Shown here piece by piece: positions 27,117 to 63,559 of a stretch of 64,000 bases of DNA (positions within the stretch are counted from its first letter, which is position 1; the number at the start of each line of letters is the position of its first letter). This stretch comes from Minutocellus sp. GHC0000111 (lineage: Eukaryota). The notes beneath the pieces were generated by a model. It did no database searches and was not told the DNA's origin. It worked only from the letters and a program-made list of their open reading frames with translations. A program made the position numbers and the translations under genes. The stretch is taken from contig OZ361257.1 in assembly GCA_977018835.1 (NCBI GenBank), positions 3,410,001 to 3,474,000 of the forward strand, read 5' to 3'.

Positions 27117-29321
27117 ATGGCGGCTGTGCGGTTGGCAACGCGTGGGTCGCGCGTCATTGCTGCCACCGGCGGCGCGGGGGTGCTCCTGATCGGCATTGCT
27201 GCTGCGACTTTCAAGGATGAAAACAACCCCGCAGAACATTTATCCGATGAAGGCAAACGCACGAAACGAGGTATACGAGTTCGTAAGTAGGTTATCCGAT
27301 CCCGCAGGCAAACGCACAAACCGAGGCATAGGGAGGACAAAGGTCGATTACCCCCAGCAGATTCAGGGATTGGAGATCCCAAACCTCGCATTCAAGCTGG
27401 ATAGTAGCCAAAGGATGTGTCAGTGCGAAGCAAGCAGCAGTACTACTTATAGTAGTACCAGAAAGGCATCACCAACGGCGACCCGAGATCTGACTCGTCG
27501 GTTGACACTTCGTCGCATGAATTCTGCTGCAACCGGGAAGAACGTCGAGTCACTCTACGACATCGATGTAGAACCGCTGGGCGTCGGGGCCTACGGAGAA
27601 GTGTACTACGCCAGAGATAAACGAACAGGTCGAGGAGTCGCTGTCAAGCGCATATCCAAGGAATACACTGACGAATTGGAGTTCCAGCGCGAGATGAATG
27701 CCCTGCTGCACATTCGTGCCTGCGGTGGACATCCCAACATATGCCAACTCCGCGAAAACTTTGAGGAAGCCAATGACTTCATTTTGATCTTGGATTTGAT
27801 TGAAGGCGGAGAAATGTTTGAGTTCTTGATTGACAATGGAGCATATTCGGAATATGAAGCGGCCAGATTGATCCGAGAGGTTGCTTCTGCTCTCTCCTTT
27901 TTGCATGGAATTGGATTGGTACACGCTGACCTCAAGCCTGAGAATTTAATGCTGACGTCCAAAAACAAAGACGAAGCGACAATAAAGTTGGTTGACTTTG
28001 GATGTGCTGGTGAGTTTTGTTCCCATGTTTCGTTGCTTTCTTGATGTAATTCATCCGTGCTCATTCATTTTCATTCGGGTTCAATTTGATTCGATGCAAC
28101 TTCGCACAACCAGAACTCGTCCCAGAGTATTGGGGAGATGGCCCTCCCCTCGATGGCGGTGACGGATCTGACGAAGAAGCAATTCAGCTTGCTCTCCTTC
28201 AACCAGCCCGAATGATCCGTCCCGGGAGAGCCGGTGGAACCACTTCTGCATATTGCCCACCTGAATCATTTGATTCTGATGACGGCGCCCCTATTTCACC
28301 CTCTATGGACTGTTGGAGTCTTGGCGTTATCCTCTATATAATGCTGGTTGGTCTCCATCCTTTTGATCTGGATTCCAATTTAACGGATGAGGAAATCGAG
28401 GTGCACATCAAGGCACAACGTACTCCTCCTCTATATGGGTCGCCTTATACGGCCCATCTGTCTCCGTCTGCCATTGACTTGCTTTCAAAACTCATGGCAG
28501 ACGATCCAAAGAAAAGATTATCAGCACACGAGATGCTTGAGCATCCCTGGGTTAAGGGAGAAACAGCAAGGCGCGATGTAATCGAGGGTCTCGACGAAAA
28601 ACTGTCAAAATTGCGACGCTTTCAGAGCAAAGTCGAGGCAAAAGTTTTCCATAATCTCATCAACTGGTCCGATGACGATGAGCGGAATGATCCCAGTCAT
28701 AAGGGCAAGTCCTTGTTGGAGAAGGCGTTTTCATCTCTGGATGAGAGTGGTAAGGGATTTGTTACTATGGATGATGTCGCTCGATATGTTGGAGCTACGA
28801 TCACAGATGATGAAGGTGGTGTCGAATCCACAGCAGCCGATGCATCTGCAGCAGATTCCATCAATTTGTCAGGTTTTACTGATTTGGTCGGAGAGCACAT
28901 GCAGAGCAAATATTTCCCCAGAGGCCACGTGATTTTTCATGAAGGCGACGAAGGGGACTACATGTACTTTATCAATAGCGGCACAGTGGAGGTGTCTACA
29001 AAGGATGGCTTCCGTGCGAAGTTGGGCCAGGGCGACAGCTTTGGTGAGGGTAGTTTATTGCGCCCCGGCGTTAGAAGATCAGCGACGTTGCGCTGCACAA
29101 CTCCTGTGCATGTTATCCAGGTGGACAAGGAGTACTTTAAGAAATATCTGAGCACCAAAATGGCTCTGAGGCTGCGAGAGAAGATCAACACGCGTAGCTT
29201 TGGTCGCGTAGAATTCATCCTATCCGAACAACCAGGACTGGAAAGAGTCGACTTTGAGCAGGGAGACATACTTTTCAACATTGGCGATGAAGCCGATGAA
29301 TTTTTCATTCTCAATGAAGGG
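27117..29321 (+). pseudogene. 3'-truncated copy of the Ca2+/cNMP-regulated Ser/Thr kinase; intron 28010-28113
   Basis: LGVGAYGEV, VAVK, HADLKPEN, DFG, EF-hand and cNMP domain. Nearly identical to the minus copy over 27325-29321, then switches to TTAGGG repeats. Has a 9-bp deletion (SGD) relative to the other copy. Confidence 0.85.
27325..29321. repeat. ~2 kb inverted duplication, partner 61477-63482
   Basis: Shadow ORFs in the track are nearly identical. Differences I found: a 9-bp indel, GTT/GCC (V/A) and CCA/CCG. Confidence 0.95.
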
Positions 29322-30254: not shown

Positions 30255-30831
30255 CGCAGGAAGATAATTCTATTTGGTAGAGAAGCAACTCAACTGATGA
30301 TCAACAATCGGATGAGCTATCTATTGTGGTGGACGGTCTTGAGTCGGATCCAGTGGGTCTTAGGGGTTGAACCTCTCTCTTAGCAAAGTTTGACCAAGAC
30401 CAACGTATTCTGCTCCAATTGTTCGCCTAATGCAAGTCGCGTTGGAATTGAGCATAAGGGCGAGACTCCTTTATTCCGCGCCTCTTCGCATCGGTTGGGC
30501 GATTTGATGTCGTCCTTTTTGGAATGGAATGAACTCCGGGTTCTTTGGAGATATGACGAGTGGTGCTCCCGCGTCGGGGTGGTTTTGGTGAGGAAATGTG
30601 CGCGGCACCAGGGGGGACCATCTGGTGCTTGTCGTGCGTACCTAGGTACATGTACATGTATTCTGCGAGTTGTTATCGCTCTTGGGTTGGGTTCTTGCGT
30701 TTATCATGTTGTTGGTGCAGATGTCCCGGGCGGCCTCTAATGTGATGATCGCAGTGATTTATCTTTGTTGTTAGTTAGTTTATACGGAGCGTTGCCCCGG
30801 CACTTCGTGCTATTAGCTTTGGTGTGTTTGT

Positions 30832-31749
30832 GTGCCATCCTTTATGCGTAGGTCGAGCATCTCCAGTCAGGGCTCATCCTCTTCAACGGGGGCGAGCATT
30901 GAGCTTTCTCGGTTCGTTAACGGGCCATCATTTATTGGGCGTGAGCTGGCTCGGCGCATCGTGTTGATGTCCACTATACTTGGTCCTGGTAGTGACGGCG
31001 CTGCTGAGAATGACGCTTGGTCTGGCGTGGTTATGTCCCTTCTCGGTCATTCTTGTACAGTCCGATTTTTTCGTTGGGTGGAGAGCACTTATGTTCCTCA
31101 GTATTTATCATCAGCGTATTCCGGTCTCAGGAGCAGACAATTGGAAGCCGATGGCACGATGAGGAGTATGATGTCCATGTCTTCTTTGTCGGCTGCTTGT
31201 AGGGATTTATTCTACATTCGCCAGCTTCTTTGTGAAATATTTGTTCTTTTCTTTCGCGTCTCCGAGCGTGGCAGGGTCGTCGAGCGGTATGCTGATGACA
31301 TCCAGTGGGGCATGGTGTCAGCTCTTGTGTCCTCGTCGAGATATCATCGGTACTTGTTTGATCACCGCCTCATGGAGTACGTTGGTTGTCTTCACTTTCG
31401 TAGTGATCCATTCGGATCTCGAGTTTTACTGCGAGGAAGCACATTCTTGCATTTTATCTGTCGCCAGAATCATGAGTATCTTCCTCGTGTAATATCAGAA
31501 TATCACCGTTTTAATGTTCAATTTGGTGGTGATATTCACGCTCGGCAGAGGCATCACAAGTATGGTTCTCCTGCTCATCATTTTCGTAGATTCCATGATA
31601 TTCACACTCATGGGAATCACAGCGACATGTTTGCATCTGGATCATCGACCTTCGAACTGTTGCGGGAATTATTCAGGGGCGGTGAGGCTTTAATAGGTCT
31701 ATATATGACGGGGATGATTATGGTCAGGTTTAGCATGCTGCATAAGTGA
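30832..31749 (+). CDS. Hypothetical protein inside the element
   Basis: 305-aa open frame in T-rich DNA with a His-rich C-terminal part; converges with the large minus gene on an AT-rich spacer (31750-31861). Confidence 0.5.
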   Translation: MPSFMRRSSISSQGSSSSTGASIELSRFVNGPSFIGRELARRIVLMSTILGPGSDGAAENDAWSGVVMSLLGHSCTVRFFRWVESTYVPQYLSSAYSGLRSRQLEADGTMRSMMSMSSLSAACRDLFYIRQLLCEIFVLFFRVSERGRVVERYADDIQWGMVSALVSSSRYHRYLFDHRLMEYVGCLHFRSDPFGSRVLLRGSTFLHFICRQNHEYLPRVISEYHRFNVQFGGDIHARQRHHKYGSPAHHFRRFHDIHTHGNHSDMFASGSSTFELLRELFRGGEALIGLYMTGMIMVRFSMLHK

Positions 31750-31861
31750 GTGTGGTCTTCATCTCTCCGTTTTATGTGCACGTGCTATGTTCATCTTAGG
31801 GTGGTATTTTATTGGGCACGTGCTCATATATAATATATATAATTATTTCTCTAATATGTAA

Positions 31862-34800
31862 TCATATACCTGAAGGACTATCTTCATCACCATTGGATTT
31901 TGCCTCTTCATTGTTCAGATCATTTCCAAGATTTCGATTTTGTACAGGGGAAGCATGATCTCCATTTTGATCTTGGACAGCAATATCACTAGTCCCAGCT
32001 GAAGTTGGTGTTTGGGACGAGTCCTGCGTTTCATACATTCCTAGCTCCGAGAAGGAGTGGGGAGTCACCATTTTGACTCTGGGCGACTTGATCCTTTTTG
32101 CTGTGGCGTTGAGGTCCTTTGCCAACGCTCTTCTCCATTTGTTTAGGTGGGTGAGGATTGTCACCACGTCGTTGGGATTTTCTTGGACTAACTTTTTCAG
32201 GTCGCTCTTACTAAGTTTCCTGAACGGATCATGTCTCAGATCCTCGGCAGCAGCGGTCATCACCCCGACGGTCACGTCTTTGATCGTATCCTTTTCTTCC
32301 ATTTTCCTACGGTTGCTGTGGGGATTTGCATCACCATCACGGAGTGCTTTGGCGTACCTTATAACTTGTTGCATTTTGGGACTATGGCTAGTATCACGGG
32401 CCGGTGGCGACTCTTGAGCGGCATCACCTGCGACTACTTCCTCATTTTGTCGCGGTGATGACTTCATTCTTTTTGCTCGTCTTGACTGGTCTTGGCCCCC
32501 GACTTGTTCCTCGGAATTATCTTGATTCTCATTCGCGTCGTCAGCATTTTGCCTTGCACTGTTATCTGCATTGGTTGGTTTTGTTGTTAATTTTGACGTT
32601 GGTGTAGGCGATCGTCGTCGTTTGGCTGCTGTCGATTGGAAAATAGAAATATTAAATTTGAGTAAGGGATACCAGGAAAGAGCAATTATCGAAGAATACC
32701 ACGGGGTATTCAAAAGGAAGAGGCGAGCTTCAATTATTCATATCGTACCTTTTGACCCTGGATCTTTGGCTTTCCATAATCGTTGAGCAAGATTGGGATC
32801 ATTCTTGTCCTCCTCAGCGGGCTCGTCAATTAGCAGTCTCACCATGGCTGCGAATCGGAATTCTTTCCTGAGGTACAATATCTCGTCACTTGTTGACTTG
32901 AATCCAACAATGCAAGTTTTATCGTCGAGGTCGGTGTCCGTTGGAATCTGATCTCGTCTCATCGTTGACGACGAGAAGAGGAACCAATCGTCTTCGTTCT
33001 TGAGATCCTTGATTCTCTTCTTCATTGCGTCGCTCTGCAGATATCCTGCGTCTAGTGCTTCCCTCAGCACGGAGACGTATGTAGCCATTGCTAATGATAG
33101 CACGTCCGTTGGGGGAGAATTCGATCTGGACGTCCACTCTGTCCTGTTCTTGTAGGCTGTGGCAAGGATCGTATCTGTCATGTGATCTCTTTTCTCGGCC
33201 GATGCTTCGTTGTGACGATCATTCTGATAAGCTCGATATCCCAGCACTAATACCGATTTCTCTGCCGACCAGTTTGAGACCTCAACCGTCGTGAATCCTT
33301 TGGTCGCCAGGGCAACTTCGGTGAATTCCTTGGTTATTTCTGACAGAGCATTGTAGAAGATGTGATTCCTGATGGCCTCCAATTTATATGTCGGCAGATT
33401 ATCGAGGGTGCTGTCGATCACTCCCTTGAGCTTCTTTGTTCCTCTTGCGCCTTTGCTCTGTTTCCCGGCGATAGTTGATGCCACGTTCCGCAGAAACGCC
33501 CATATAAGTTCAAGCTTGTTGTACGAAGCCATCTTTGGATCCTGAGAAAGTGCCATTTGGAAGGTGATGAGGGCGGAGGGGTTGAGGGCCATCATCGATG
33601 CAAGATCAAGTGTTCCTCTGATTTCTTTGGTCAGCGTGAAGGTGCTCTTTTGCTTCGGGGCCTCGAATTTGTGAACTCCATACGATATTCTGTGACCAAT
33701 TGCGTTATGGAATTTGGCGTCGTCATCACAGTCGGGATCCTTTTGATATCCTCGAGCCAGAAGCTTGATCTGCGCTACCACCATTTCGAGTTTCTTTTCT
33801 GGCGTTACTTCATCGCCATTTGTCTTTACCTTCGAGATTTCTTCTCTTCCCCAGAGCGAGGTCGCAGTTAGATTCTTTGCGAGGGCGAAAGCCGCTGCCC
33901 CCCTAACGGACATGAGTGTTCCTTCGAGAGTACCACCACTCTCCATGAGACATGATTCTACGGTGTGATGCTTAATTTCCTTGGCCTGGCTGGCAGCATT
34001 GAGATCTTTGAGCATGTTGCTGAGTTGCGAGAAATTGGTTTGTCCCGATGATTGCTGAGCAGCACGAGCATTAAGGTCACTGACTGCTCTGAGGTGGTCT
34101 ACATCTCGTGTGAAATGAAGAACCGTGACATTGACCTTGTCGAGGATCTGTGAATCAGCGTGCAACACGTTGGATCCTTGATTATGGTAGCATTCCATTT
34201 GCTTCCGCAGCGTCGGGTTGGTCACGTCAAAGGAGCGATTGCTATCATCACCATATGGCAAACCGAATGTTTTCATCCACGATGCGAGACCACGGTGCTG
34301 GCCATCAATGTTGCAACCAATAAAATTGTAACTCATTGACGTTGGAAAGGTTGATCCGAGACGACGGCGAGACAAGTAAATCACCATGTCATACCGCGCC
34401 CGCAAGACATAGTGAGTTCTTTTCATCCCTGTATATCGGTCCAAGTCTCGAAGAAGAGGTTCCCTATGCGCAAAGAGAGGAAATATTCGTGAGTGTTCAA
34501 ATTCTGTTTGAATACCTCTTGGTATTTAACCAAAAAATAAAAATCAGCACTTACCCTTCGATCTCACTATTCTTGTCCTTCTCTATGAATGATTCGATGC
34601 TCGCAATGTCTTTTGCCAAGCCTTCGGCAATTTTTGAGCACTCGTCATGATAATCCTGGTTCCAATTCTCCTCTATTCTTCCCTTTTCAATAGTTTCCTG
34701 GATGTATTTATCGGCTTCTTCATAGCTTCCTGCTGACAGCATGACATAATACAGTACCTTGGGTCCTGAACACTCGACCACGTGCCGCTTTACTGTTGAC

Positions 34801-37690
34801 TCGCCACTCGCGACGCCGTATTCTGCATCGAACACAAGATCCTCCTCATCATTATCTGCTTCATTGCCAACGGCTCCGATCATCAGCGTTGCAGGTTGGA
34901 ATGTAAGCTGCTCCTTCGCCTCATTTCTGCTCCGGAACATGTCCACTGCGATGTCTTCGGCCTTGGCCCGCTGCACTAGTTGCTGATTACAGCCTCTGAG
35001 TTTCAATCGCTGCGAGGAAGTCTTCGGGAAAGGTAACGACACATAGGCCAACAGGACAATTGGCCAATCCCCTCTCGAAGCAATGCTTGTTTTTAAATCA
35101 ACTTTCGTCGTGCTTGCGGTTATGTTTGCGAGATGATCGACATCTTTAAATTCATCTTCATCGTCACTATCATTGTCACTCTTGCCGCTGCCCTCACTAC
35201 TCTGCTCGTCTCTATCGCTGCCACTCGAGTCGTCGTTATTGGATGCCTCGCTGTTGGCTTCTTCGGCTTCATCGTCAGCGTTATCGATATTATCAATAGA
35301 TTCGTCGTTAACTGGAGGTGCATTGAAGTCCTCTTCTTCCATCGGTAGGGCTTCCTGATCATTGGTGTTTCCTTCGGTACTAACCTCGGCGTTATCGACG
35401 GCACCATGAGGCCTGTCAGTTTCCAGAAGTAGCGTTTCTCGGCTGGCCATTTTTCGACTCTCCCGCCTTGGTGTAGCAGCGTCGACGAATAGCCTCGAGC
35501 GTTCAGTCTCGCTCATTTCTTTATCTGAGGCGTCATCGCTGAGTTCGTCAAGATTTAGAAAGGTATCCTTTTCGAGCGTATCAAGATGGGCTTTTGTTTC
35601 CTCACCCACCCTCGCGAAATGGGCTTGTAGATAGTCATTAAGGATGGCCGCCCCATTAGGAGCCACACGGTCAATTTCATCCAATACTTTGGCCACTTTC
35701 ATCAACTCTGTCTTTGCGACAAATCCTTTACTTTCCCAGAGGGGCGTAATATTCTGCCATCTGCCCAATCCAACTTCATACCATATGTCATACTTCAAGA
35801 GACATTTGACAGCAGGTCTCGAGCGCTTGGCAAAGAGTAGTTTCATTACTCCGATAATATAGCTCTGGGTGTTCATGTTCACCTCTTTATTCCTAATCAG
35901 TTGGACATTGTCTTTCAAGAACTGGCCCAGGCAATAGGGAGTCATGGCATTATATCCGACCCAACTACCAGTTGATTTTGTGTTCGGACCGATCGTTGGA
36001 AGAAATTCATGAGATCGAAAGAGGTCGTGGATGGATTGCCGCTCTTCTCCGCTTGTCGCAAATCGTAAGTCAAGATCATTTGAAATAGGGCCCTCTGTCA
36101 ATTCTCCAAGAGCAAGAGTCGCCAATAGCCCTTGTACAAGGAAAAGATAGACGAGATATCTCTTTTCCTTATTGTCCGCGAAAACATCAGGACCAACATG
36201 ATCGTCCTCACTGAGAAGTGTTGGTACCGTAGCCCTGAGATGGTCAATTGCGTTAGTCAGAAATAAATCTATCAACTGAGGAAGCGAATCTCGATGAATG
36301 CAAACAAAGAATTCCGCTCCGCGTCTTTTGAGTTCTCCGCCAATGAAAGGATGGTAACTGGCAAAAAGTTTATCGATAACGTCATCGTCACCGTCCCTAT
36401 TGATGTAGTCTGGCACGATGCCAGAGTCAATTATGTCCATGCATTTCAGGATACGTTCGATGTTATTATTGGAAACGAATGGATAAAATGCAAGCGCGGC
36501 AGAGGGGTCTTCTATCCACAGGTTGTCGAGGTTCTCCACTTTCCCCCCTGGTCGCCGATCACGGACGAGTTCACATTCTAACAGGGTCTTTGTTGGTTCG
36601 CTGACGTCTCGCTTTCTAAGCAACGTCTTCATTATCCCGAAGAGAAAGCTCTGCACGTAATTTGCGTCACGACGATAAGTCTGATATTGAGAGTTTGTGT
36701 CACCATGATGAGAAGGGAGCACTCCATAGTAAAATCCCCACCATTCATGATTGAGATCCTCGGTGAATTTTCCGAGCGTCAGTTCACCGGCGAAACCCTC
36801 GTTATCCATTATCTTCATCATTATTCTAACGTCTTAGCTGCGCATGATGAGATTACGTCGATACGGATTTAGGTCATCCAAGTTGTCATCTACCTCGCCG
36901 TAAGTGCGATAGGCATGAATGCCCTGCGAGACGAGTGAATACACCAGCATTTTGAAAGCTCCAGTGCTCCCAAATCCTTCAGTGTTCAATCTGATACAAG
37001 CGCCCCTATCGTTTCCATCACCAGCGGCACCAATATCTTCACCATTAATTGCAGGGTCAGTGGCCCCGAAGTACTTCAAAAGAGCACGAAGAAAAAGGAC
37101 CGAGAGCTTGACCGTTGAAGCCTCGCCAATGCATACACATATCTTTCCATTATGATTGAGAAACGTTGCTTCGATACCGGCAGCAGTCAACAGTTGCTTA
37201 ATTCCTTCATCTGGGAGTTGGATTTGGATTTGCTATGTCACGTAAATAAAACAATGTATAAGTCAAAGGAGAGTTAGATCTCGTTTTGGGTTTTCCGAAT
37301 GAATACTGGGTATTCAAAAGGAAGAACGTCATATAATCATCATGATTACGTCATGGAAATAAATCAGCACGAAAAAAAAAGAAAAATTGTTCTCCTTGAA
37401 GGGAAATATTGCTACCGCTGGATGATTTTGATTGCAACTCAAAATCACACACCAATGGACAATGATTGTCGACGTTCCCTTTCATGTGTCATCAGTGCGG
37501 GGAATTCCCTTTCGCTCTTGGTCAGTCGAAAATATGTGTTGATCTGATATCAATCGCATGCTCATTCACCGAAATGAACACAGAAATAGTTGATACTTAC
37601 ATCGTTGCTCCCAGCCTTCGCCGCACGCCGAGAGTTGCCGCTGTCACCAGCATCCTCGCTTCCATCTGGGGGATCGCCAACCGTGGCCAT
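31862..37690 (-). CDS. Large orphan gene (~1,750 codons); exons 37690-37601, 37232-34555, 34463-32749, 32628-31862; one in-frame TAA at 36834-36836
   Basis: All three GT-AG introns are phase-compatible and join the separate ORFs into a single 5,250-nt frame. Confidence 0.65.
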
Positions 37691-37728
37691 GGTCACTTCT
37701 TTGTTACGAGGCGGATGATGAGTGGACG

Positions 37729-39330
37729 TCAATATGAGCGATGTATCGTTCGTTGTACGAAGAAGCACCTTACTTTGCGATCGGTATCAGATTTTTTTTT
37801 CCAAGTTTTGTGAGCGAATGGTCCGGTATTTTCTCGGAATTCGCAGAAATCTTGATTCGTTCGACCGGATGTCAGAATAGAAAAGCCCTTTGGTGTCGCC
37901 GTATCTTCATGTTCATTCTCGCACGTGTATTCATCTTTCATTATTTGAGAAAAGTGATAAGTGCCAGTCCATCTCAACGATTCGACCAACGCTCTTGGCA
38001 AGAGCGTCCCATCGAAAGAAAACATTGCTCAGAGGTCGCCATATTCCACGGAAGATAAGCGTAAGTGCCCTTCGCGTTTGCGTCACTCAGTCGTGGCGCC
38101 GCTTTTATTCAGTGCGACTTGTACATTTATTGCTCGGGATCGTCGCCGCGTCTCGGTTTCGTTCCAATGAATCGTATGATCATGTCAAGTTGATTACTCT
38201 GTTCATTTGTAATGCTGGAAACGAGTCGCCCATTGCGCTTGAATGGTCGCGCAGTGCAGGTGATCGATCTTTACCATCGGGTCCCAAGCTTTCATCACCA
38301 TCGTTGTCGGCGATGGGCAGGAGCGGCATGCATGGGCGGCATACCGATTGCGCATCGCATGGCGCGTGGCATGGTGGCGGTTCCTTATTTTTGACGCACG
38401 AGGGAAAGACATTATTTTGGGAGTATTTTTCCCTTTAAACACCGGGAGGTGTTCATTCGGAATGCCCGAAAAGTCCACACATCTGCACGTGCAACTGTGA
38501 TTTTACACCTTTCTAGTTCTTATGATGTTAGTTGTTACTATGTTTCTTCCAGCTGCTATGTCAAGCACTGGCTCTCCTAGCAGGAACCTGCGCAGGCTTA
38601 AGAATCCAGCAAGGGGCATTGCGCCTGTCTCTACGAGGTTGACGACACCCACAACTTTGGCTCTGCCTGAGGTTGTGACCACACCAGAGAGGTTCACTGT
38701 GAGCTTGTAGCCACTGGCTCCACCACCACGGGCCTCCTTGGCACTCTTGTACTTCTCTGGACAACGTCCTTGGTCGCAAACGTACCAGCTAGCTGGAATG
38801 CTCCCATCCTTGTAAGGAAGGCAGCAATCTTCCGCAACGAAGCATCGGCAGCCCAGCGTCCAGGGGGAACGCCGTCAGTCAAGAAGGACATGGCTTCCTT
38901 GATGTCTTTGTCCATCAAAACTGTGTTCAGGGGTGAAGGATCAACAACCTCCAGGTTGCACCCCTTGAAAATGACCCAACAGGAGTGGTTGTCCTGCTCA
39001 ATCTGAGAGCCAAGCTTGGCCCACCGCCCACCGCCGTTCACCATCATGTCAGTGTAGGCCTCCTTAAACACTTTGGATGTCACAACTTCGTGCAACATTT
39101 GCTCCAGGCAAACACAGCCTCCTCGGCAGGAGGGCGAATCTTCTCTGACACGTCCAGGGAAAACATGGTGGTTGGTTGGTTGTGATTGGAAAAGCTGACC
39201 GACCCAGTCTTGGAGTGGGACAGCTTCCCAACATCAGCACCGCAAGGAATGTCGCACAAAGGAACCTCTTTGGCACTCTTTGCAAGGTCAGAGAGGCACG
39301 CAAGATGGGGGTTCTCGGTCAAAGCTTGAA
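37729..39330 (-). pseudogene. Degraded second orphan gene of the element; probable intron ~38384-38508
   Basis: Chain of broken minus-strand ORFs (39080-39322, 38694-39098, 38203-38478, 37729-38025), partly in CpG/TpA-eroded DNA. Confidence 0.35.
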
Positions 39331-40019
39331 GAGAGTGTCAATGAGAACATCAGGAAAAAAACGTTAAGCGCAAAAGTCATGAAGGAGGTCAAACACTCAG
39401 TCACAAATTCAGTCAGACCCCATTTTGCAATCAAAAAATCAAAAACTGTAATCAAACTACATAGTGATCAAAAAAGCCCCTCTTGTTTGCACCTGTTTGC
39501 TCCTCACTGTGTGCTTCAACTTCTTCTGCTAGTGCACCTCTCACTCATTTTTGTGTTCTTCACCTCCAGTTTTGGCACACATGGCATCTCTATCAGTGAT
39601 GCCAGACAGGAGAAGTCTGTTCTTCCCCCCCTTTCAGGCCTCAAAAAGCAATTGCCGTGTCAACTCCCTGTGCTCGTGCACTCGCCTAGTGTTGACGAGG
39701 TGTCAATGGCTTGCAGCTCAACCAGCGTGTTCCAGCAACACAGGAGGCTCTTCAAGATGATGAGAAGCTGCATTGTTTCCTTAAATGTTGCCGAGATTGG
39801 GAGCACAGTGGAGCTGAGCAACACAGGGAACACTGTTGCAAAGCCCTCAGTTTTTGTGACAGCCCCATCTTGGTGCTTGGTGCTTGAAGTCAGCCCTCTT
39901 GGTGTGCCATCAAAGGGGTTTAGCTACTTTTTCATGGACAAGAAGGTAAAGGAGAAGATGAGCTTTGCTCTTTTGCACCAGACGCTAAAAAGCGTGGGCT
40001 GGCAAGGGCTTCCCTCAGG

Positions 40020-43000
40020 ATGAAGCTGATGCCAGCAGCGCACAGCCCATGCCTGGTGAGGCTGTCTGCCAGCTTGGTTGCCGGCCCCAAAGAAGTTTGG
40101 TCAATCAAGGTCCGGTCACCCTTTGGATTGCCATTTGAAGTCAAGGTGAAAAGGACCTGCAGTGGGCGGAACTTGTGGCTTCAAGTTGTGCTTGCCACTG
40201 AGAAGCTAGCAGGACGGGGCACAGTGGACATTGACTCTCTTTATGATGGGAACCGATACGACTGTCCCCTGCCACTCTGCTGCTTGGGGTTGAGCAATGG
40301 ATGCACAGTGGACGCAATTGACAAAAAAGACCAAGAGTGGGTGATCTTCATTAAGTGCCCTGATGGCTCAGTCATCGCCACGCCGGCTAGCAAGGAAGAA
40401 AGTTGCATTGATTTACATCGCAGAGTGGCAGCAATGCTGGCAACTCAACTGCCGGTGTCGCCATCTGACGTGTACACGACGTTTGGGTCAAAGCTACTAG
40501 AGCACACAAAGGCAAAGTTGTGGGAGACAGGAATGCACAATGGATCAACTGTGATGGCAAACATTCGTCTTCGCGGTGGCGTCTGCGTTCCACACACCGG
40601 CAATCTCAAGCGGAGGCAAAATCAGGTAAATACCAATCACCCGATTCATGGCTTGGTTCCGAAAGAATACCCCCTGGTATTCAAAAAGAACCTACACTAG
40701 CTGATGATCACAGCCCCTTACCTAGGTACTGCTAGCACGCTAACTTTCAATTTTAAAATTATGTTTTACACAATGAACAGGTATCAAAACAAGAAAAGCA
40801 GCGACTGAAAAATGCTAGACGACACTTAGAACAAATTAAAAGGAAGGAGAGCATACCCAGGATGAACATAAAGCCACCGCATCATGACCGTCTTCGCGAC
40901 TATGATGCTCTTCATGTGCAGCAGCTATGGGAAGACGCAATAGAGTTGGACGTTGATTTGAGTGCTTGCGATCCATATCGTGCACTGAACAATGACAAGT
41001 ACAAAATCGCCATTGGGCAAGCCACCAAGGTAATATCGGCAGCGAGGAGGAAAAGAGACGCCCACTTCAGGAAGGAAGATATGTACGCAATTAATCGCCA
41101 AGCATTCCGAGCATCAACCTATGCCGAACAGAAGGTACTCGAATCGCTCATGCGATTTGAATCGAGAATGATGCAACTTCACCATGATGTTTGCTCTTTG
41201 TGCAATGAGTGCAGCATTGATATGACTGTAAACAAGAATAATGTCTGTCGAAGGTGTGCAAATAAACGGACGAAAAATGATTATACGAAAGAAAATGCCA
41301 TGATCCCACTGTGGATTGATGATGAGGGTAAGGAGCATCTAGAGGTTCCTCCGGAACTAGAATGCCTCACTATTGCCGAGAAATTATTGATCCAGCGCGT
41401 CTCACCGCTCGTGCCAATACATCACATTAAAAATGGCAATCTTGGAATAAAGGGGCACGTTTGCTCCTTTATGCAAAATATCGAAGATCTAGCTTCGTCG
41501 CTCCCAAAATTACCTCACCAAGTCAAAGCAATACGGATGATTCGAACTCACGAAAATAGCGACGGTCTTCCGGTCACGACAATGTACACTGTGAATCGTC
41601 GTCGCGTCATGAATGCTCTCCTCTGGCTCGTAAAGCACCACTCTGATTATAGGCAAGCCTACGAGAACGGTGAATTGACTATTGATGAAACAAATCTTGA
41701 CTGGATGCCCGCCGGGATAGATGAGGCTGATCTCTTATCCGTTACTGACATAGTGCACACCGAAAAAAATGATAGTCTCGCTGATACCGAGGAGACTGGG
41801 GTGTCCAATTCCCAATGTATCGATCCCCTGATGATTGATAATGATGAAGAGGAATGCTCAGGTTTCTCGTGTAAAGAGGCAACATCGCTCACCAACGAAA
41901 ATCAAGAAGCAATGATAAATGCTTTGAAGGAGGCAGCAGGCGAGCAGAGCGACGTATCAAAGCTTGATTGGCCACAGACCAGCTATCCCGATGCCATTTC
42001 GGAATATTCCAATGTACGCATCTTCACGAATGCATTCCCTTGGCTTTTCCCGGGAGGAACAGGTGATTTCCGCGATCTTGACCGTGAATCAGACATAGAC
42101 GTAGCAAATTGGGCACAACATCTTCTACGGCAGGCCGATGGAAGATTTCAGCGAGACAAGCTCTGGGGATTTTTTGTGTGTAACTACTGCCAAAGACATC
42201 GTAACAATTCTAGCGGAGGATACTTCATCAACAATCACATCAGCGATCCGCCCAAATCTCTCGATGAATTGAAGGAACAGCTAAGGAAAGGCGACTCTTC
42301 CTTTGTTAGCAAACTCATTTTCTACAGCAAGCGAGTTCGTGGATCAGATTCATACTGGCGGTCAGAACGCTCAAAATTATACACATGGATTTCTCACCAC
42401 ATAGAAGCCAATCACGGAGCGCCAGACATATTCATGACCCTCTCCTGTGCGGAATATTTTTGGCCGGATGCAATACGGCTCCTAGAAGAACGCATGTGGA
42501 TCGCGGAAGGGAGGAAAATCGTAAACGGAAATCGATGCTTTCGCGACGGACGGAGGATTGACCTAAGCAATAATAGGGTCGATCGAAACAGAGCCGTCAA
42601 TGACTATGCCCTCGTAATTCAACAATATTTCATCAAACGTGCAGAGAATTTCTTGAACACCGTCGGAAAGGAATTACTCGGCATAAAATATTATTGGGGC
42701 CGAATGGAATTTGCCAAAGGACGGGGGCAGATACACATCCATCTTCTTGGTATATTGGACAAGACCATGACAAGAGACCTCCAGGACCAGCTAAATGACG
42801 GAGGCAGAAGTCACGCCGATCAGGCCAAACTCGTTGGGGACTGGGCAGAACGGGTCTTCGGCATGACTTCATCCATCGACAGGAATAGCGAGTGAGTATA
42901 TGTGCAAATTGAATCAAAAACCAACATGATCAGACGCGACAAGGTCTCATGATCCCTCTTCCTCCTTTCTCGACAGGCCTGCTGACGAAAGCGGTAACAT

Positions 43001-46000
43001 GGGAGCAAGCAAACAACGTCTCGGCGAGGTTTCCGACTATCGTAAGGACGAGGCTCGCCTCTGTTTTGAATGCCAACATCATAAATGCGGGAGCTACTGC
43101 ATGCGAAACCATCGTGCGAAGAAAAATAAAGAATCAGCAAATTCCCCTCCCAGCACACACGAGACGAATTCAAGCACCGCAAAACCAGATAAACGACGAT
43201 ATTGCCGTGCCGGAACAGGATACGAGAAGACCCCAAATGCTTGCGATACACCAGGATTCCAATTACGTTAAGACCATGCCATCACCCGTGATGATCGTGA
43301 TTTCCTGAAGCTCGAAATGAAGCGGAACAATCTTCGCATGATTCAGACCCCACTCAACGTTCTAAGAGGATGGCGTGGCAATTGTGATATCAAAGTGTTA
43401 TTATACGACTGTCACGACAGCGAACCAACGCCAGAGGACATAGCCGAAGTTACCGATTATGTTGTCGCTTGCGCATGCAAAGGAAACGAGACACTGGCCA
43501 CCGAACGCGACACTATTACAGCCATCGTCAATCGGTGAGTGCTGCGTTGGATGCAAATGTACCAAAACGGGACCAATTCCATTTGAATACCCGCGAGTGT
43601 TCAAAAAGAATCTGATCCCGCGTCTATTTCCGTTCATTGTGTCATTTTCACGCTGTAACGCGCATGTATGCTCAATCCCCTGATTCGACTTCCAGTGCTG
43701 AGGAGTTATCAGGAAATATTGATGATGTAATCACATTGGCCAGGAAGCTGCTCAACAGAGCCGTGGTCAGTAGACTTGTGCCAAAACAAGAGTGCATGGT
43801 GGAGCTAGACAAGCTTCCCTTGATCCTGTGCACGGAGACCATCGAGTCAAAATTATTAGTTTGTCCGCCGCCGGGGTAGCTACAAGCTCACATCAGACAC
43901 CCACAATGGACTGGTTGCCAAATACAGAAAAATAGCTGCCAAGAACCCTAACCTTTCGCTCAGTGACCTGTTCCAACAACAAATTGGCAGCAAGAACACT
44001 GAGAAAGCTGTCATTCCACATTGGATAGGAGGGAGGGGGCAACCAACATTCCCAGTCACTAAGTAAGGACTACATGCCAGAATGACGCTGCTAGTGCACA
44101 GGCCATGGAGAGCATCAACACCTCCCCGGCTAAGCAAAGAGCAATGGATCAAAGAGTTCAACAACTTTCTTTCTGACTCGTGCTGCCCCCAGTCAGTCAA
44201 GATTGCGCACGCCAGGGTGAGAGAGCGCAAAGTGAAGAAACGCCACAGTGAGCCAACAGCAGAAGATGAAGAATGCTATGACTACGAGGCTCACGGAGAC
44301 ATGGATGATGAAACCAGAGACATTCTCAACTTGGTCAAAACCAATGCAGTCAGCAACGACCCAGGAGTGACCATTGGGGACTTCAAGTTTGACAGAGGGC
44401 TAAACTATGACTGGTCTCAGAGAATGTTCCCCCCCTGCAAGAGACGCCATGCTTGAAGGGGGGTCCTGGCTAGAAGAAGCAGTCAGCTCAAAAGATGCAA
44501 CAGAATGGACACCTTTTACCACTGAAGTAGATGGAAAGCCCATGGCAATTGATGCGTCAATGGTGAAAAATGACCAGCAGGAGTTGCTTCTGACAGTGAT
44601 GAGCAAGGTCAAGGAGTGGGTGGAGTGCGCCACTTCAAGTGATGTCAACAAAGCCAGGTCTTTCAAGCCACTCTACTTGACGGTGCAAGGCTGCACAGGA
44701 TCAGGCAAGAGCTTCTTCATTAAATGCTTGGTGAACACAGTGAGGGAGGTTTTAGGAGAGAAAAACGTCATCCATGTGGTTGGCCCCACCGGTGCAGCAG
44801 CATGGTCAGTCAGTGGGAGGACAGACAATGCACAGAAAGTTTGGAATAAACCCTCACTCTCCATCGTCTTTCCCTTCAGAAAAGCAAAGAGAAGAGACAA
44901 TGATGAAAGACAACAGAGTGGCAGTTGTTTACGTGCTTGATGAAAGCATGTACACAGCAGACAACCTTGGGGCTGCTGAGAGGAATCTTGCAGCAACTGC
45001 TCATGGAGGAGGCCACGAAGGAGAGCTGTTCGGGGGGGTGCCCATCTTTCTGCTTGTGGGGGGGATGACTACCAGCTGCCCCCACCAACAAACACACAAA
45101 AGGGAGCATTTGACACAGTTGGAGGGCAGCCTTCACACTCACAAAGGCAAACTGGAGTTGCTGCATCAGGAGCACAGCTTTTTCTCGACACATCTGAAAA
45201 GTGCATGGAACTCAAGAAGACAATCAAGCGTCAAAAGTCAGATCAGGTTGAACTCGTCAGCATGCTGGGAAGGCTTCGGTCAGGACACCCAACACCACCA
45301 GCAGATGATGCAGACAAGCTAATGCAGTACCACCTCACCAACTTTGGAAATGCAGAAGTGGAAGCCATCACAAGCACAGGAACAACCAACCATGCATCTT
45401 TATTTTGCAAAAAAGGCGCCGCCAAGGGATGAGTTCAACTACCAGAAGCTACAAAAGGTGTCCAGTTCAAGCAACCCAGTGGCCCTGGTGAAAACCAAGT
45501 GGGAGTCCACATCAGGGAAGGCAGCTGTCCGCAAGGCACACTTTTCCAAACCCACCAGCAAATGCAACAGTTCTTAGCAGAGAGGCGCCCATGGTCTGCC
45601 TGGCAGACCGAAACTTTGAACCAGAGTGTGGGGACTCTTCAACAACAGCGTGGGAGAGGTAGAAGAAATTATTTTCGAAGAAGGAAGAAATCCAAACACA
45701 GGAGACCACCAACCATGCTACGTGGCAGTGAAGTTCCCTCAGCAGTACAGCGGTCCGGTCTGGGACCCCCCCTGAAGCCAAAGGTAAAAGAACTAGATTC
45801 TTGATGAACACCGAGGGGTGTTCTTTTGGAAGCCAAGCCGTGAGTCAGGTCATTGGTTGTTTAACTGCACCAGTTTAACTCACACCCAACAACCTCCTGC
45901 TGCCTTTCCCCCCTCATGTGAAAAGGTCGTTCCAATTCCAATGACAGCCATGATGTGCAAAAAAACAAGTAAGTGCTGCGCAAAGCCACTTACTGCCCCC

Positions 46001-46500
46001 CCACTCACACCGTCATTTGCAAAAACGTGCCACACATTCCAAGGACAGTCAGCAGGACCAGTGAGCCATGGCCAGCAACCAAATGCGGTGGACCGGGTGA
46101 TTGTGGACCCAGGAGAGACAAAGGAATGGAGGGAAAGAACCCAGGGCTGCTCTGCATGGCAGTGTGTCAAGAGCAACCACCATTGGCGATGCTAGCAACA
46201 ACAGCAGTGAGCAGAGAGGGAGACGGCAAGACTCAGCAATCAACTTCACTGGGCACAACATGACTCGAAACAGAGTGCTGAATCTGACACTTAAAAAAGA
46301 TGGGTCAGAGCACCAAAGAGTGCAGTTGAGACGAAAGTGTGTGGGCATCCCGAGTGGAAGAAAACACAGTGGGGGGATGCAGCTGGCTGAAGGAGAAACA
46401 CCAGAGACACAGTGCTGAGCTGCTGGTGCAGGAACTTCCGTGCGAGCAAAGACACCCTTGATGAAGCTGCGAGCAACTGGAGCTGGCGCAGGAACCTGAA
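40020..46500 (+). pseudogene. Helitron-like RepHel: ubiquitin-like domain + HUH endonuclease (Rep) + PIF1-type SF1 helicase; introns 40626-40780, 42892-42976, 43535-~43658, ~45784 onward; helicase half disrupted
   Basis: Rep motifs LTIAEKLLIQR, AFPWLFPGG, GSDSYW, PDIFMTLSCAE, YWGRMEFAKGRGQIHIHLL (HUH), WRGNCDI, DYVVACACKG. Helicase motifs QGCTGSGKS, VGPTGAAA, GQTMH, VLDES, FGGVPIFLLVG, DYQLPP, HTFQGQS. In-frame TAA at 43269-43271 and many later frameshifts. Confidence 0.9.
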
Positions 46501-47080
46501 CAGAGACCTCAATTACTAGCAAACCAAGACAAAATTCAATTGAACACCAAATGAACTCAATGAGAAACGAGTGCTATGAAGTGGTATGGCAGGCTCTTAA
46601 AAGACACAAACTACATGCTTACAAGACTTAGTTACTTGTTTAACCCTAATGCTGTGCACCATCCCTCTCAAACAAAGTGGTGTATCATATGAATATTCAT
46701 GTCTGTATGTTTTTACTTTCAATTTTCCTACATCGCCCTGAACTAGCGGCTAAATCGGCCCTTAGCGGAACCCGGAGTTGCTGGGAATTAGAGGCCCGGG
46801 CCCATGCAATTTTATTCAGCTCTGAATATTTGGATAAATACAAATAAAAGTACAAAATCCCATATCATAGTTGAAGCGAACGCCGCGAACCAGTCACATG
46901 GTTCGCACTGAAGTTCGGCGTCAATGCAATCAATGCCAACACTGACATCACACCTTGGGGCGCGAATAAAGAGATGCTGTTCCGGCGCTCTTAGTCAATC
47001 ACACTGCCCACAAAAAGAACATAGAATTGCATTGACTAGAAATCAATTTACAAAAGACAAAACTACTGCCTGACGACAAC

Positions 47081-60999: not shown

Positions 61000-63392
61000 T
61001 CAAAGCTTGCCAAAAACACTCCGAAACTCATCAAAGGTGATATTTCCCGAACCTGTATGGTCCATGGATTCAATGAGGACCTTTTGCTGTTCGTCTGTAA
61101 GATTTTTGTCAAGGTGGGTGAGTAGATCGCGAACCTCGTCGACACTCAACTCTCCGGAGTTATCCTTGTCGAGATCAACGAATGCTTGACGCAACTGATC
61201 ATGAACAGGAAAGGACTTGCGCGATCGTAGAACGACAGCGCGCTTGAATTCACGACGGTAGCACATATCATGCAGGGCTTTCTTAAGCTCAGGAGATCTG
61301 TGAAGCAGTTGGTTGAAACGATGATAGTCGAGGCGTCTACATTTGCACCCCTCTTTGCTCGAACAGGTCGCAGAGGCCTTTCTTGGTCGGTCCATCACAA
61401 GACTTTGGAGCCCAAACACATCTCCGGCTTGCATTTCATAGATAATATTTCCCTTCGGTCCACGGACATCAACCTTCCCTTCATTGAGAATGAAAAATTC
61501 ATCGGCTTCATCGCCAATGTTGAAAAGTATGTCTCCCTGCTCAAAGTCGACTCTTTCCAGTCCTGGTTGTTCGGATAGGATGAATTCTACGCGACCAAAG
61601 CTACGCGTGTTGATCTTCTCTCGCAGCCTCAGAGCCATTTTGGTGTCTCCCGAGCTCAGATATTTCTTAAAGTACTCCTTGTCCACCTGGATAACATGCA
61701 CAGGAGTTGTGCAGCGCAACGTCGCTGATCTTCTGGCGCCGGGGCGCAATAAACTACCCTCACCAAAGCTGTCGCCCTGGCCCAACTTCGCACGGAAGCC
61801 ATCCTTTGTAGACACCTCCACTGTGCCGCTATTGATAAAGTACATGTAGTCCCCTTCGTCGCCTTCATGAAAAATCACGTGGCCTCTGGGGAAATATTTG
61901 CTCTGCATGTGCTCTCCGACCAAATCAGTAAAACCTGACAAATTGATGGAATCTGCTGCAGATGCATCGGCTGCTGTGGATTCGACACCACCTTCATCAT
62001 CTGTGATCGTAGCTCCAACATATCGAGCGACATCATCCATAGTAACAAATCCCTTACCACTCTCATCCAGAGATGAAAACGCCTTCTCCAACAAGGACTT
62101 GCCCTTATGACTGGGATCATTCCGCTCATCGTCATCGGACCAGTTGATGAGATTATGGAAAACTTTTGCCTCGACTTTGCTCTGAAAGCGTCGCAATTTT
62201 GACAGTTTTTCGTCGAGACCCTCGATTACATCGCGCCTTGCTGTTTCTCCCTTAACCCAGGGATGCTCAAGCATCTCGTGTGCTGATAATCTTTTCTTTG
62301 GATCGTCTGCCATGAGTTTTGAAAGCAAGTCAATGGCAGACGGAGACAGATGGGCCGTATAAGGCGACCCATATAGAGGAGGAGTACGTTGTGCCTTGAT
62401 GTGCACCTCGATTTCCTCATCCGTTAAATTGGAATCCAGATCAAAAGGATGGAGACCAACCAGCATTATATAGAGGATAACGCCAAGACTCCAACAGTCC
62501 ATAGAGGGTGAAATAGGGGCGCCGTCATCAGAATCAAATGATTCAGGTGGGCAATATGCAGAAGTGGTTCCACCGGCTCTCCCGGGACGGATCATTCGGG
62601 CTGGTTGAAGGAGAGCAAGCTGAATTGCTTCTTCGTCAGATCCGTCACCGCCATCGAGGGGAGGGCCATCTCCCCAATACTCCGGGACGAGTTCTGGTTG
62701 TGCGAAGTTGCATCGAATCAAATTGAACCCGAATGAAAATGAATGAGCACGGATGAATTACATCAAGAAAGCAACGAAACATGGGAACAAAACTCACCAG
62801 CACATCCAAAGTCAACCAACTTTATTGTCGCTTCGTCTTTGTTTTTGGACGTCAGCATTAAATTCTCAGGCTTGAGGTCAGCGTGTACCAATCCAATTCC
62901 ATGCAAAAAGGAGAGAGCAGAAGCAACCTCTCGGATCAATCTGGCCGCTTCATATTCCGAATATGCTCCATTGTCAATCAAGAACTCAAACATTTCTCCG
63001 CCTTCAATCAAATCCAAGATCAAAATGAAGTCATTGGCTTCCTCAAAGTTTTCGCGGAGTTGGCATATGTTGGGATGTCCACCGCAGGCACGAATGTGCA
63101 GCAGGGCATTCATCTCGCGCTGGAACTCCAATTCGTCAGTGTATTCCTTGGATATGCGCTTGACAGCGACTCCTCGACCTGTTCGTTTATCTCTGGCGTA
63201 GTACACTTCTCCGTAGGCCCCGACGCCCAGCGGTTCTACATCGATGTCGTAGAGTGACTCGACGTTCTTCCCGGTTGCAGCAGAATTCATGCGACGAAGT
63301 GTCAACCGACGAGTCAGATCTCGGGTCGCCGTTGGTGATGCCTTTCTGGTACTACTATAAGTAGTACTGCTGCTTGCTTCGCACTGACACAT
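61000..63392 (-). CDS. CAMK-type Ser/Thr kinase with EF-hands and two cNMP-binding domains; exons 63392-62798, 62693-61000; native 5' end missing
   Basis: Complete kinase motifs, DESGKGFV EF-like loop, GDSFGEGSLL and GDVFGLQSL cNMP domains, DKDNSGELSVDE and DHTGSGNITFDE EF-hands. Confidence 0.88.
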
Positions 63393-63559
63393 CCTTTGGC
63401 TACTATCCAGCTTGAATGCGAGGTTTGGGATCTCCAATCCCTGAATCTGCTGGGGGTAATCGACCTTTGTCCTCCCTATGCCAGAACCCCACCTCCGTCA
63501 TGGAACATCAGCATCGTCACAAGAATCGAATCAAAAACAAAAGTACCAATTATCAAACC

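What the first reader, a model, noticed from the sequence alone, without database searches (positions are those of the whole stretch)
32686..45831. A 34-bp dyad placed in nearly every intron of the Helitron-like element
Seen: consensus TTCY-N4-GAAYAC-N6-GTRTTY-N4-RGAA at 32686-32719, 34502-34535, 37293-37323 (3-nt spacer), 38429-38462, 40657-40690, 43577-43610 and 45798-45831, roughly every 1.1-2.9 kb. Each copy lies in a predicted intron: all 3 of the large orphan gene, 1 of the degraded gene, and 3 of 4 in RepHel. The half-sites and spacing are conserved while spacers and surrounding intron sequence are not, and I saw no copy in host introns. Inference: this looks like an operator array for a dimeric element-encoded protein. 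Possible roles are anti-silencing (analogous to VANC binding non-coding motifs in Arabidopsis VANDAL elements), or partition/replication of circular intermediates. Alternatives are a splicing-regulatory hairpin or an intron-generating mini-element. I know of no such system described for Helitrons.
Basis: partly seen in the sequence, partly recalled or inferred. Interest (0 to 1): 0.88.

Follow-up and report, generated by a model that had tools for sequence, protein, structure and literature searches.

The report
ParB-like operator array in Helitron introns
A multi-copy rolling-circle transposon carries seven copies of a 34-base palindrome, mostly inside its own introns, which are likely docking sites for a large protein it encodes; that protein is predicted to hold a bacterial-type ParB nucleotide-binding domain and would help the element resist host silencing.

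Summary
All seven dyads lie at the stated places, far above chance (6 matches vs 0.04 expected; none elsewhere in the window). RNA contigs support the introns around sites 1, 2, 3 and 5, weakly site 7. Site 6's intron rests on reading frame; site 4's is unsupported. Site 3's short spacer is private to this copy. Core bases are invariant and the outer arms mostly cannot pair, so this reads as a double-stranded DNA site, not a hairpin. The introns are not introners. The 1,749-codon orphan gene has a conserved [DE]GQHR motif, and language-model neighbours are ParB-clan families; structure prediction failed, so the fold is likely, not shown. One distant homologue (L002, 32-39% identity) keeps the same intron with a different 14-6-14 dyad changed symmetrically on both arms (7 of 5000 shuffles), suggesting site-protein co-evolution (n=1). 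Blocks depleted of CG, TA and AT begin near sites 4 and 6, but equally near splice acceptors, and site 7 is unprotected. Best reading: a ParB-like load-and-spread anti-silencer, VirB/VANC-like (about 0.35; about 0.6 that an element protein binds the sites). Binding is untested. My searches found no such system described for Helitrons.

The parts
32686..32719 (.). Dyad 1, in intron 3 of the large gene (32629-32748)
   Evidence: RNA joint 32628/32749 in 3 of 4 runs
34502..34535 (.). Dyad 2, in intron 2 of the large gene (34464-34554); intron position shared with homologue L002
37293..37323 (.). Dyad 3 (3-nt spacer here, 6 nt in the RNA runs), in intron 1 of the large gene (37233-37600)
   Evidence: tables 4, 5
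38429..38462 (.). Dyad 4, between the large gene and the plus-strand unit; possibly in an intron ending at 38553, not RNA-supported
40657..40690 (.). Dyad 5, in RepHel intron 40626-40780; read-through peptide present in all 7 other listed copies that reach it
43577..43610 (.). Dyad 6, in predicted RepHel intron 43535-43695
   Evidence: frame kept; retained in long RNA contigs
45798..45831 (.). Dyad 7, in RepHel intron 45784-45925; inverted relative of dyad 5 including about 25 nt of flank
   Evidence: (weak joint)
31862..37690 (-). Large accessory gene, 4 exons, 1,749 codons, one premature stop (36834-36836) in this copy that is a sense codon in RNA runs and in P0001/P0013
34292..34306 (-). 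DGQHR motif, predicted ParB/Srx-type nucleotide-binding box
   Evidence: motif meaning from PMC4619093 passages
30844..31749 (+). Orphan ORF (301 aa) that travels with the element (cluster of 28)
40344..40592 (+). Ubiquitin-like domain ending in LRGG, spliced in frame to the Rep exon
   Evidence: E 0.001 to a designed ubiquitin, weaker to ISG15
40781..46195 (+). RepHel: DUF6570 and Helitron_like_N Rep region, then a Pif1-type helicase broken by frameshifts in this copy (3' end not fixed)
42892..42976 (+). Predicted RepHel intron without a dyad
38467..40373 (.). Block depleted of CG, TA and AT
43661..46731 (.). Block depleted of CG, TA and AT; contains dyad 7

Best explanation
The seven palindromes lie in non-coding parts of a multi-copy Helitron and are likely double-stranded DNA docking sites for the element's own large protein, whose DGQHR region is predicted to be a ParB-type nucleotide switch; a dimer would load at each site and would spread along the element to counter host silencing. 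Shown: the sites, their spacing, four RNA-supported introns, the spliced transcript of the large gene, the conserved motif. Inferred: DNA rather than RNA recognition, the identity of the binder, the fold, clamp-like spreading, and the anti-silencing outcome. Introns and the intergenic gap are the only places where a 34-bp site can sit every 1-3 kb without disturbing coding. Sites appear to spread between introns by copying (sites 5 and 7). About 0.6 that an element-encoded protein binds the sites; about 0.35 for the whole mechanism.
For: Core positions 1, 2, 10, 11, 13, 14 pair in 7 of 7 sites as the same bases, while positions 5-8 pair in only 1, 1, 3 and 4 of 7 (site 3 counted with the spacer seen in RNA), as expected of a bipartite protein site. 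Only 1 of 7 intron-sized folds reached z below -2.5 and two did not form the dyad stem. [DE]GQHR is kept in 6 of 6 aligned rows that span it. Atlas feature neighbours: DUF3723 0.91 and ParB_N 0.90 for the window protein; ParB_N 0.94, DUF6551 0.92, DUF3723 0.91 for homologue P0005, with 10 of 10 best family hits in one family or clan ('named' filter). Homologue L002 has the same intron and phase with the best 14-6-14 dyad of its 1,652-nt contig inside it: 11 of 14 pairs, 7 of 5000 shuffles, three changes mirrored on both arms, inner TAC kept. CG change points lie 5, 51 and 284 bp from sites 4, 6 and 5 (P 0.001-0.007). Precedents: VANC binds motifs in VANDAL introns and demethylation spreads (PMC5735166, passages); VirB is a ParB-related loading-and-sliding anti-silencer (PMC10770331, abstract).
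Against: No Pfam, NCBIfam or PHROG family matches the domain. The profile match to DGQHR proteins is 35% probability over 17 columns chosen by the motif, none to ParB, and the positive control also failed. Atlas shared-feature counts (114-152 of 256) are under the 170 typical of same-family hits, and shuffled proteins reach 0.9 in 4-10 of 100. Many ParB-fold proteins are not DNA clamps (PMC12704722, passages). With CG, TA and AT together the change points move to 38540, 40343 and 43735, as close to splice acceptors (38553, 43695) as to dyads. Site 7 shows no local protection (87.6 vs 72.5-79.4 per kb), CG content has no gradient with distance to a site, and the 1.9-kb stretch between sites 4 and 5 is depleted. 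The L002 result is one locus, noticed by eye before testing, not shown to lie in a Helitron. Copies are 98-99% alike, so their keeping dyad 5 shows descent, not selection; 2 of 7 carry a change that breaks the consensus.
Confidence: 0.35

Rival explanations
1. Same protein and sites, but they act like ParB-parS on the circular intermediates of rolling-circle transposition: condensing or tethering circles so that they persist, segregate or re-insert.
For: ParB-like motif and neighbours; several dispersed palindromes as in parS clusters (recalled); does not need the weak mutation-footprint evidence.
Against: No ParA-like gene among the element ORFs scanned; no circles tested; a search on Helitron circles and partition listed 9 papers, none on this by title or abstract start.
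Confidence: 0.15
2. Same protein and sites, but the protein is the element's own repressor or copy-number brake (KorB- or DndB-like), damping RepHel expression.
For: DndB, a DGQHR protein, is an ATP-dependent repressor (PMC12704722 passage). In RNA contigs the large gene is cleanly spliced while RepHel is covered by long contigs that retain its sense introns and carry two antisense-type joints.
Against: Three sites lie in the large gene's own introns and none needs to be there for promoter control; contigs cannot give strand or level of RNA (caveat).
Confidence: 0.15
3. The dyad works as a hairpin in pre-mRNA (splicing control) or in the displaced single DNA strand (RepHel pause or packaging signal).
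For: The inner 6-7 pairs can form a stem with a 4-6 nt loop; position 12/23 is T-A 4, C-G 2, T-G 1, never C-A; L002 changes are formally compensatory; sites lie 38-94 nt upstream of 3' splice sites.
Against: Core bases are invariant instead of covarying; positions 5-8 rarely pair; the 12/23 pattern has about a 0.3 chance under independence (my arithmetic); 2 of 7 predicted folds omit the stem; no Rfam family; sites 5 and 7 sit with shared flank in opposite orientation within one transcript.
Confidence: 0.12
4. The dyad is a small selfish or neutral module spread through the element's introns by copying or gene conversion, possibly marking recombination breakpoints that made this copy a mosaic of mutated and unmutated blocks.
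For: Sites 5 and 7 share 48 of 59 aligned bases including flank and spacer; block edges lie near sites 4 and 6; 14-6-14 geometry resembles recombinase sites (recalled).
Against: No flanking duplication (0-2 nt), no terminal repeats at intron ends (3-7 of 15), 19 of 21 intron pairs unrelated outside the dyad; conserved arms with free spacers and the mirrored L002 changes need selection; the intron is older than the present motif.
Confidence: 0.1
5. The dyad is a site for a host transcription factor that the element exploits, as Caenorhabditis Helitrons carry heat shock elements.
For: Built from TTC and GAA triplets; precedent in PMC6927752 (abstract).
Against: Triplet spacing is 5 and 12 nt, not the 2 nt of an HSE (HSE form recalled); no copy near any host gene of the window; the L002 dyad changes the GAA itself.
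Confidence: 0.08

Closest known systems
VANC / VANDAL anti-silencing system of Arabidopsis (PMC5735166, passages read)
   Same: Element-specific motif in introns and intergenic parts of a DNA transposon that also encodes a large accessory protein; motif spreads by copying.
   Different: VANC motifs are 9-nt, non-palindromic, in dense tandem arrays, in a Mutator element. Here single 34-bp dyads, one per intron, in a Helitron, with a ParB-like candidate binder; no effect on silencing shown.
VirB / virS of Shigella and ParB / parS (PMC10770331 abstract; PMC12704722 passages)
   Same: Predicted ParB-type nucleotide box plus dispersed palindromic sites on a mobile element; load-and-spread anti-silencing is the proposed model.
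   Different: Eukaryotic host, 1,749-aa protein, DGQHR instead of the ParB GxxRxxA box in its usual GERR form, no HTH or ParA identified, 34-bp bipartite site; fold and nucleotide not shown.
DGQHR / DndB family (TIGR03187, PF14072; PMC4619093 passages)
   Same: Identical pentapeptide, followed by a similar helix (17 columns).
   Different: No family HMM match; no dnd genes; similarity does not extend beyond the motif in my test.
DUF3723 proteins of fungal Starships (PMC9156397 passages)
   Same: Conserved accessory protein of a eukaryotic mobile element; Atlas neighbour at 0.91 in both searches.
   Different: No Pfam match; that paper links DUF3723 to TIGR02168, not ParB, and the passages read name no binding site.
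Helitron-borne heat shock elements of Caenorhabditis (PMC6927752 abstract)
   Same: Repeated protein-binding motif inside Helitrons, made of GAA/TTC triplets.
   Different: Host factor and different triplet spacing; here one dyad per intron.

Membership tests
Helitron | Rep (HUH) domain | tested here: met
   PF14214 75.7 bits (cut-off 28.9) and PF20209 75.6 bits; HIH motif visible in the ORF
Helitron | Pif1-type helicase fused behind Rep | tested here: inconclusive
   PF05970 E 0.0012, 18.9 bits, below the 25.9 cut-off, on one fragment; region frameshifted in this copy
Helitron | Terminal signatures (5' end, 3' hairpin or asymmetric inverted repeats) | tested here: inconclusive
   No clear termini in the repeat scan; RNA cover runs from about 30772 to 46533
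Helitron | Multi-copy dispersal | tested here: met
   Clusters of 28, 30, 34 and 74 members on many Mb-size contigs; members are not a copy count
ParB/Srx fold (ParB, DndB, DUF262) | Nucleotide-binding G-x-x-R signature | tested here: met
   [DE]GQHR in 6 of 6 rows spanning it; G, Q, H, R invariant in A2
ParB/Srx fold (ParB, DndB, DUF262) | Match to a curated family profile | tested here: not met
   No such Pfam or NCBIfam hit for 9 of 9 members at E up to 10
ParB/Srx fold (ParB, DndB, DUF262) | Alpha/beta core fold | tested here: inconclusive
   Models unreliable in this region (pLDDT 45); Atlas neighbours in the ParB clan at 0.90-0.94; profile test underpowered
ParB/Srx fold (ParB, DndB, DUF262) | NTP binding or hydrolysis | not testable with these tools
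   needs biochemistry
ParB-parS / VirB-virS clamp | HTH domain that binds a palindromic site | tested here: inconclusive
   Helical region follows the motif; no HTH assigned
ParB-parS / VirB-virS clamp | Site-dependent loading and sliding | not testable with these tools
   needs in vitro loading assay or ChIP
VANC/VANDAL | Element-specific motif in non-coding regions including introns | tested here: met
   7 of 7 sites outside coding exons; none in the host part of the window; rest of the genome not available
VANC/VANDAL | Short motif in dense tandem arrays | tested here: not met
   single dyads 1.1-2.9 kb apart
VANC/VANDAL | Homology to VANC proteins | not tested
   no VANC sequence compared
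VANC/VANDAL | Protein-dependent loss of methylation over the element | not testable with these tools
   only an indirect, mixed mutation footprint
Introner elements | Introns alike over their length, with terminal repeats and target duplications (features recalled) | tested here: not met
   19 of 21 pairs unrelated, 3-7 of 15 terminal matches, 0-2 nt duplications; intron shared with a distant homologue

The most novel reading that the evidence does not exclude
A eukaryotic transposon uses a bacterial-style ParB/parS module: a nucleotide-switched sliding clamp that loads at palindromes hidden in its own introns, spreads over the element and keeps host methylation and a repeat-directed CG/TA/AT mutator away, with site and protein co-evolving family by family.
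Probability: 0.25. Interest if true: 0.92.

Novelty: new variant of a known kind. Interest (0 to 1): 0.72.

Why it matters
ParB-fold proteins in eukaryotes are known mainly as sulfiredoxin (PMC12704722, passages), and how Helitrons evade silencing or what their accessory genes do is open. A defined 34-bp site plus a candidate binder in the same element makes that directly testable by EMSA, DAP-seq and a reporter. It also hands a testable idea to the uncharacterised DUF3723 proteins of Starships. If the clamp model holds, it would be a second, independently built sequence-specific anti-silencing system in eukaryotes, using bacterial-type parts.

Tried and rejected
No whole genome is held, so confinement to element copies was tested only in the window. 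AlphaFold2 of the 594-aa exon (mean pLDDT 60, motif region under 50) and of the 157-aa domain (45) gave no usable model of the motif region; the wide fold searches gave only generic helical matches (best Z 7.0, rmsd 3.1, 76 aligned; best Z 4.7, rmsd 2.8, 43 aligned), which neither supports nor excludes a fold. The homodimer job with ATP gave no answer (score 0.00, no controls folded). PDB sequence searches of A1 and P0013 found nothing meaningful. Searches for relatives: none in viral contigs for the domain or Rep, none in prokaryotic genomes, 1 of 94 candidates in metagenome contigs, only noise in plasmids and phages; two further protein searches added no new homologue. Profile comparison used 5 of 6 DGQHR and 19 of 23 ParB sequences (rows without the anchor motif dropped; L052, L054, L063, L072 left out beforehand) and was underpowered. 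Rfam: one chance hit. Plain 5mC decay was rejected as the sole cause of the depleted blocks because TA and AT fall with CG. A distance-dependent protection effect was not found. Not-in-print searches: Helitron+diatom+ParB 0 papers, DUF3723+ParB 0, Helitron+diatom+accessory 9 listed, Helitron+extrachromosomal+circular+partition 9 listed, DGQHR 8 listed, diatom+transposable elements+hypermutation+dinucleotide 2 listed; none concerns this system by title or abstract start. Most subscription papers are outside the library; no supplements were read.
Full report
OBSERVATION. The seven dyads are at the stated coordinates. Six match the 6-nt-spacer consensus with 0-2 mismatches against 0.04 expected. 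Leave-one-out PWM scores are 30-38 bits; the best background is 8.5-10. Nothing comparable lies in the host part of the window. The exact pattern occurs 43 times, always singly, in 596 Gb of prokaryotic DNA and once in IMG/VR, which is chance level. The refined form is TTCY-N4-GAAYAC-(C)N4(G)-GTRTTC-N4-RGAA, with a GC-rich spacer (28 of 36) and AT-rich arm interiors (33 of 36). In all four RNA runs laid, site 3 has three more spacer letters, so 6 nt is the family spacing.

THE ELEMENT. From about 30.8 to 46.5 kb lies a Helitron: Rep domains PF14214 and PF20209 above cut-off, and a weak Pif1 match in a frameshifted region. Its proteins fall into clusters of 28-74 members on many large contigs, mostly 98-99% alike. 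The termini were not fixed. It also carries a 301-aa orphan ORF and a four-exon, 1,749-codon gene on the minus strand, whose single stop is a sense codon in other copies. It looks diatom-like to me from gene style (recalled, not tested); the RNA runs laid are from sponge and marine metagenomes and one coded organism.

INTRONS. RNA joints support the introns around sites 1 and 2 (3 of 4 runs), 3 (2 runs, 30-nt side) and 5 (2 runs). Site 7 has one weak joint. Site 6's intron keeps the frame but is retained in long contigs. Site 4 lies between the two transcription units and no joint spans it. One predicted RepHel intron (42892-42976) has no dyad. Contigs cannot give strand or level, and the runs may hold DNA.

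DNA SITE OR HAIRPIN. Six core pairs are the same bases in 7 of 7 sites. Positions 5-8 pair in only 1, 1, 3 and 4 of 7, and in five sites the two arm interiors are purine-rich on the same strand. Folding is unremarkable for most introns, and two of seven omit the stem. Rfam has no match. This favours base recognition in double-stranded DNA by a symmetric protein. A short inner hairpin stays possible.

NOT INTRONERS, BUT COPIED. There are no terminal repeats or flanking duplications, and 19 of 21 intron pairs are unrelated outside the dyad. One of the two exceptions is an 11-nt match away from the dyads. The other is real: site 5 and the inverted site 7 share about 25 nt of flank and 48 of 59 aligned bases. 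So at least one site arose by copying another, in the opposite orientation.

THE CANDIDATE BINDER. Exon 3 of the large gene has nine hits besides itself among 1.84 billion representatives, ten in all, two of them its own family. All six aligned rows that span it keep [DE]GQHR. That pentapeptide is the signature of DGQHR/DndB domains, and the related DGQQR motif aligns with the nucleotide-binding motif of the ParB/sulfiredoxin fold (PMC4619093, passages). Two Atlas searches, one on the window protein and one on homologue P0005 with the 'named' filter, returned ParB_N, DUF6551 and DUF3723 clusters at 0.90-0.94, with shared-feature counts below those typical of same-family hits. No curated HMM matches. 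The profile comparison matched only the motif and its control failed. I put the ParB/Srx fold at about 0.7. The fold alone does not mean a DNA clamp (PMC12704722, passages). The N-terminal 880 residues are unassigned.

A DISTANT RELATIVE. L002, the one homologous locus found (1 of 94 candidates), is 32-39% identical and has the same intron in the same phase. It lacks the window consensus (PWM -1.4). It holds a different 34-bp dyad at 1068-1101: 11 of 14 arm pairs, the best in the contig, reached by 7 of 5000 shuffles of the intron (10 of 1500 with any spacer of 2-10). Against the window consensus, positions 3/32, 9/26 and 11/24 change on both arms together, and 20 and 21 change alone. In the window 8 of about 64,000 positions reach 11 of 14, so such a dyad in a 100-nt intron has a chance near 1%. 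I saw it by eye first, with the geometry fixed by the window motif. It is one locus, not shown to be in a Helitron. It suggests that geometry is kept while sequence tracks the protein.

MUTATION FOOTPRINT. Two blocks have CG observed/expected of 0.37 and 0.32 against about 1.0 elsewhere. Their inner edges lie 5, 284 and 51 bp from sites 4, 5 and 6 (P 0.001-0.007). Against reading this as protection: TA and AT fall too; with all three markers the edges move to 38540, 40343 and 43735, as near splice acceptors as dyads; site 7 is not protected; and there is no gradient with distance. Other copies carry near-identical sequence in the part of the first block that their proteins cover, so that depletion predates their spread. 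This is a weak hint only.

COPIES. Of 14 other listed members of the cluster that reads into intron 5, 7 reach the dyad: 4 identical in peptide, 1 with a change the consensus allows, 2 with a change that breaks it. At 98-99% identity this shows descent, not selection.

MECHANISM. Most likely the dyads are loading sites for the element's ParB-like protein, placed where coding allows. Loading and spreading would counter host silencing, as VirB does at virS in bacteria (PMC10770331, abstract) and as VANC does by other means in Arabidopsis (PMC5735166, passages). Binding, fold, spreading and outcome are all inferred. I give about 0.6 to an element protein binding the sites and 0.35 to anti-silencing, against partition of circles 0.15, self-repression 0.15, hairpin 0.12, neutral copied module 0.10 and host factor 0.08.

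NOVELTY. It works like VANC/VANDAL in logic and possibly like VirB/ParB in parts, and is a member of neither. My searches showed no such system for Helitrons; two returned nothing and the others I saw as listings, apart from passages of PMC4619093. DUF3723 passages (PMC9156397) name no binding site. An unchecked note of this scan describes palindrome arrays in introns of a fungal Mutator-like element (e1-7825859); it is a parallel and no support. I file this as a new variant of a known kind, interest 0.72, with a 0.25 chance of a eukaryotic ParB-type clamp system that would be a new kind.

Noticed in passing
window 38467-40373 and 43661-46731: CG, TA and AT are each roughly halved and TG/CA raised. 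Other copies share the blocks and differ among themselves at TA-containing codons (Tyr to Cys or His). Looks like a repeat-directed mutator acting on all three palindromic dinucleotides, not plain 5mC decay.
   Followed up: partly
window 41245-41551 and 42281-42397: Antisense-type spliced joints inside the Rep exon in 3 of 4 RNA runs (29-30 nt sides), while long contigs retain two sense introns: a likely spliced antisense RNA over RepHel.
   Followed up: partly
window 40344-40592: Ubiquitin-like domain ending in LRGG spliced in frame in front of Rep.
   Followed up: partly
window 27325-29321 and 61477-63482: Inverted 2-kb duplicate (99.4%) of a kinase-cNMP gene; the left copy breaks at 29321 into two telomere-like TTAGGG units, where host RNA contigs leave the window.
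   Followed up: partly
window 38593-39357: RNA contigs join this block in other orientations and order than the window, so the 'degraded gene' is rearranged in this copy (table 5).
   Followed up: no
window 43470-43472: The second Tyr of the Rep YxxxY-type motif reads Cys here; all 4 RNA runs show A at 43471.
   Followed up: no
proteins P0007, P0012, P0036, P0037: Homologues at 24-28% identity on Mb-size contigs; P0007 is on a contig of the same length as family members P0018 and P0039, suggesting a second, divergent family in the same assembly.
   Followed up: no
window 30639-30655 and 40719-40728: Short perfect palindromes (a 10-mer present at both places); 8 letters of the second are missing in 2 RNA runs.
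   Followed up: no
L002 1418-1651 (-): The homologue's reading frame ends early and an unrelated ORF runs on the other strand, so the contig may be chimeric at this end, downstream of the intron used here.
   Followed up: no
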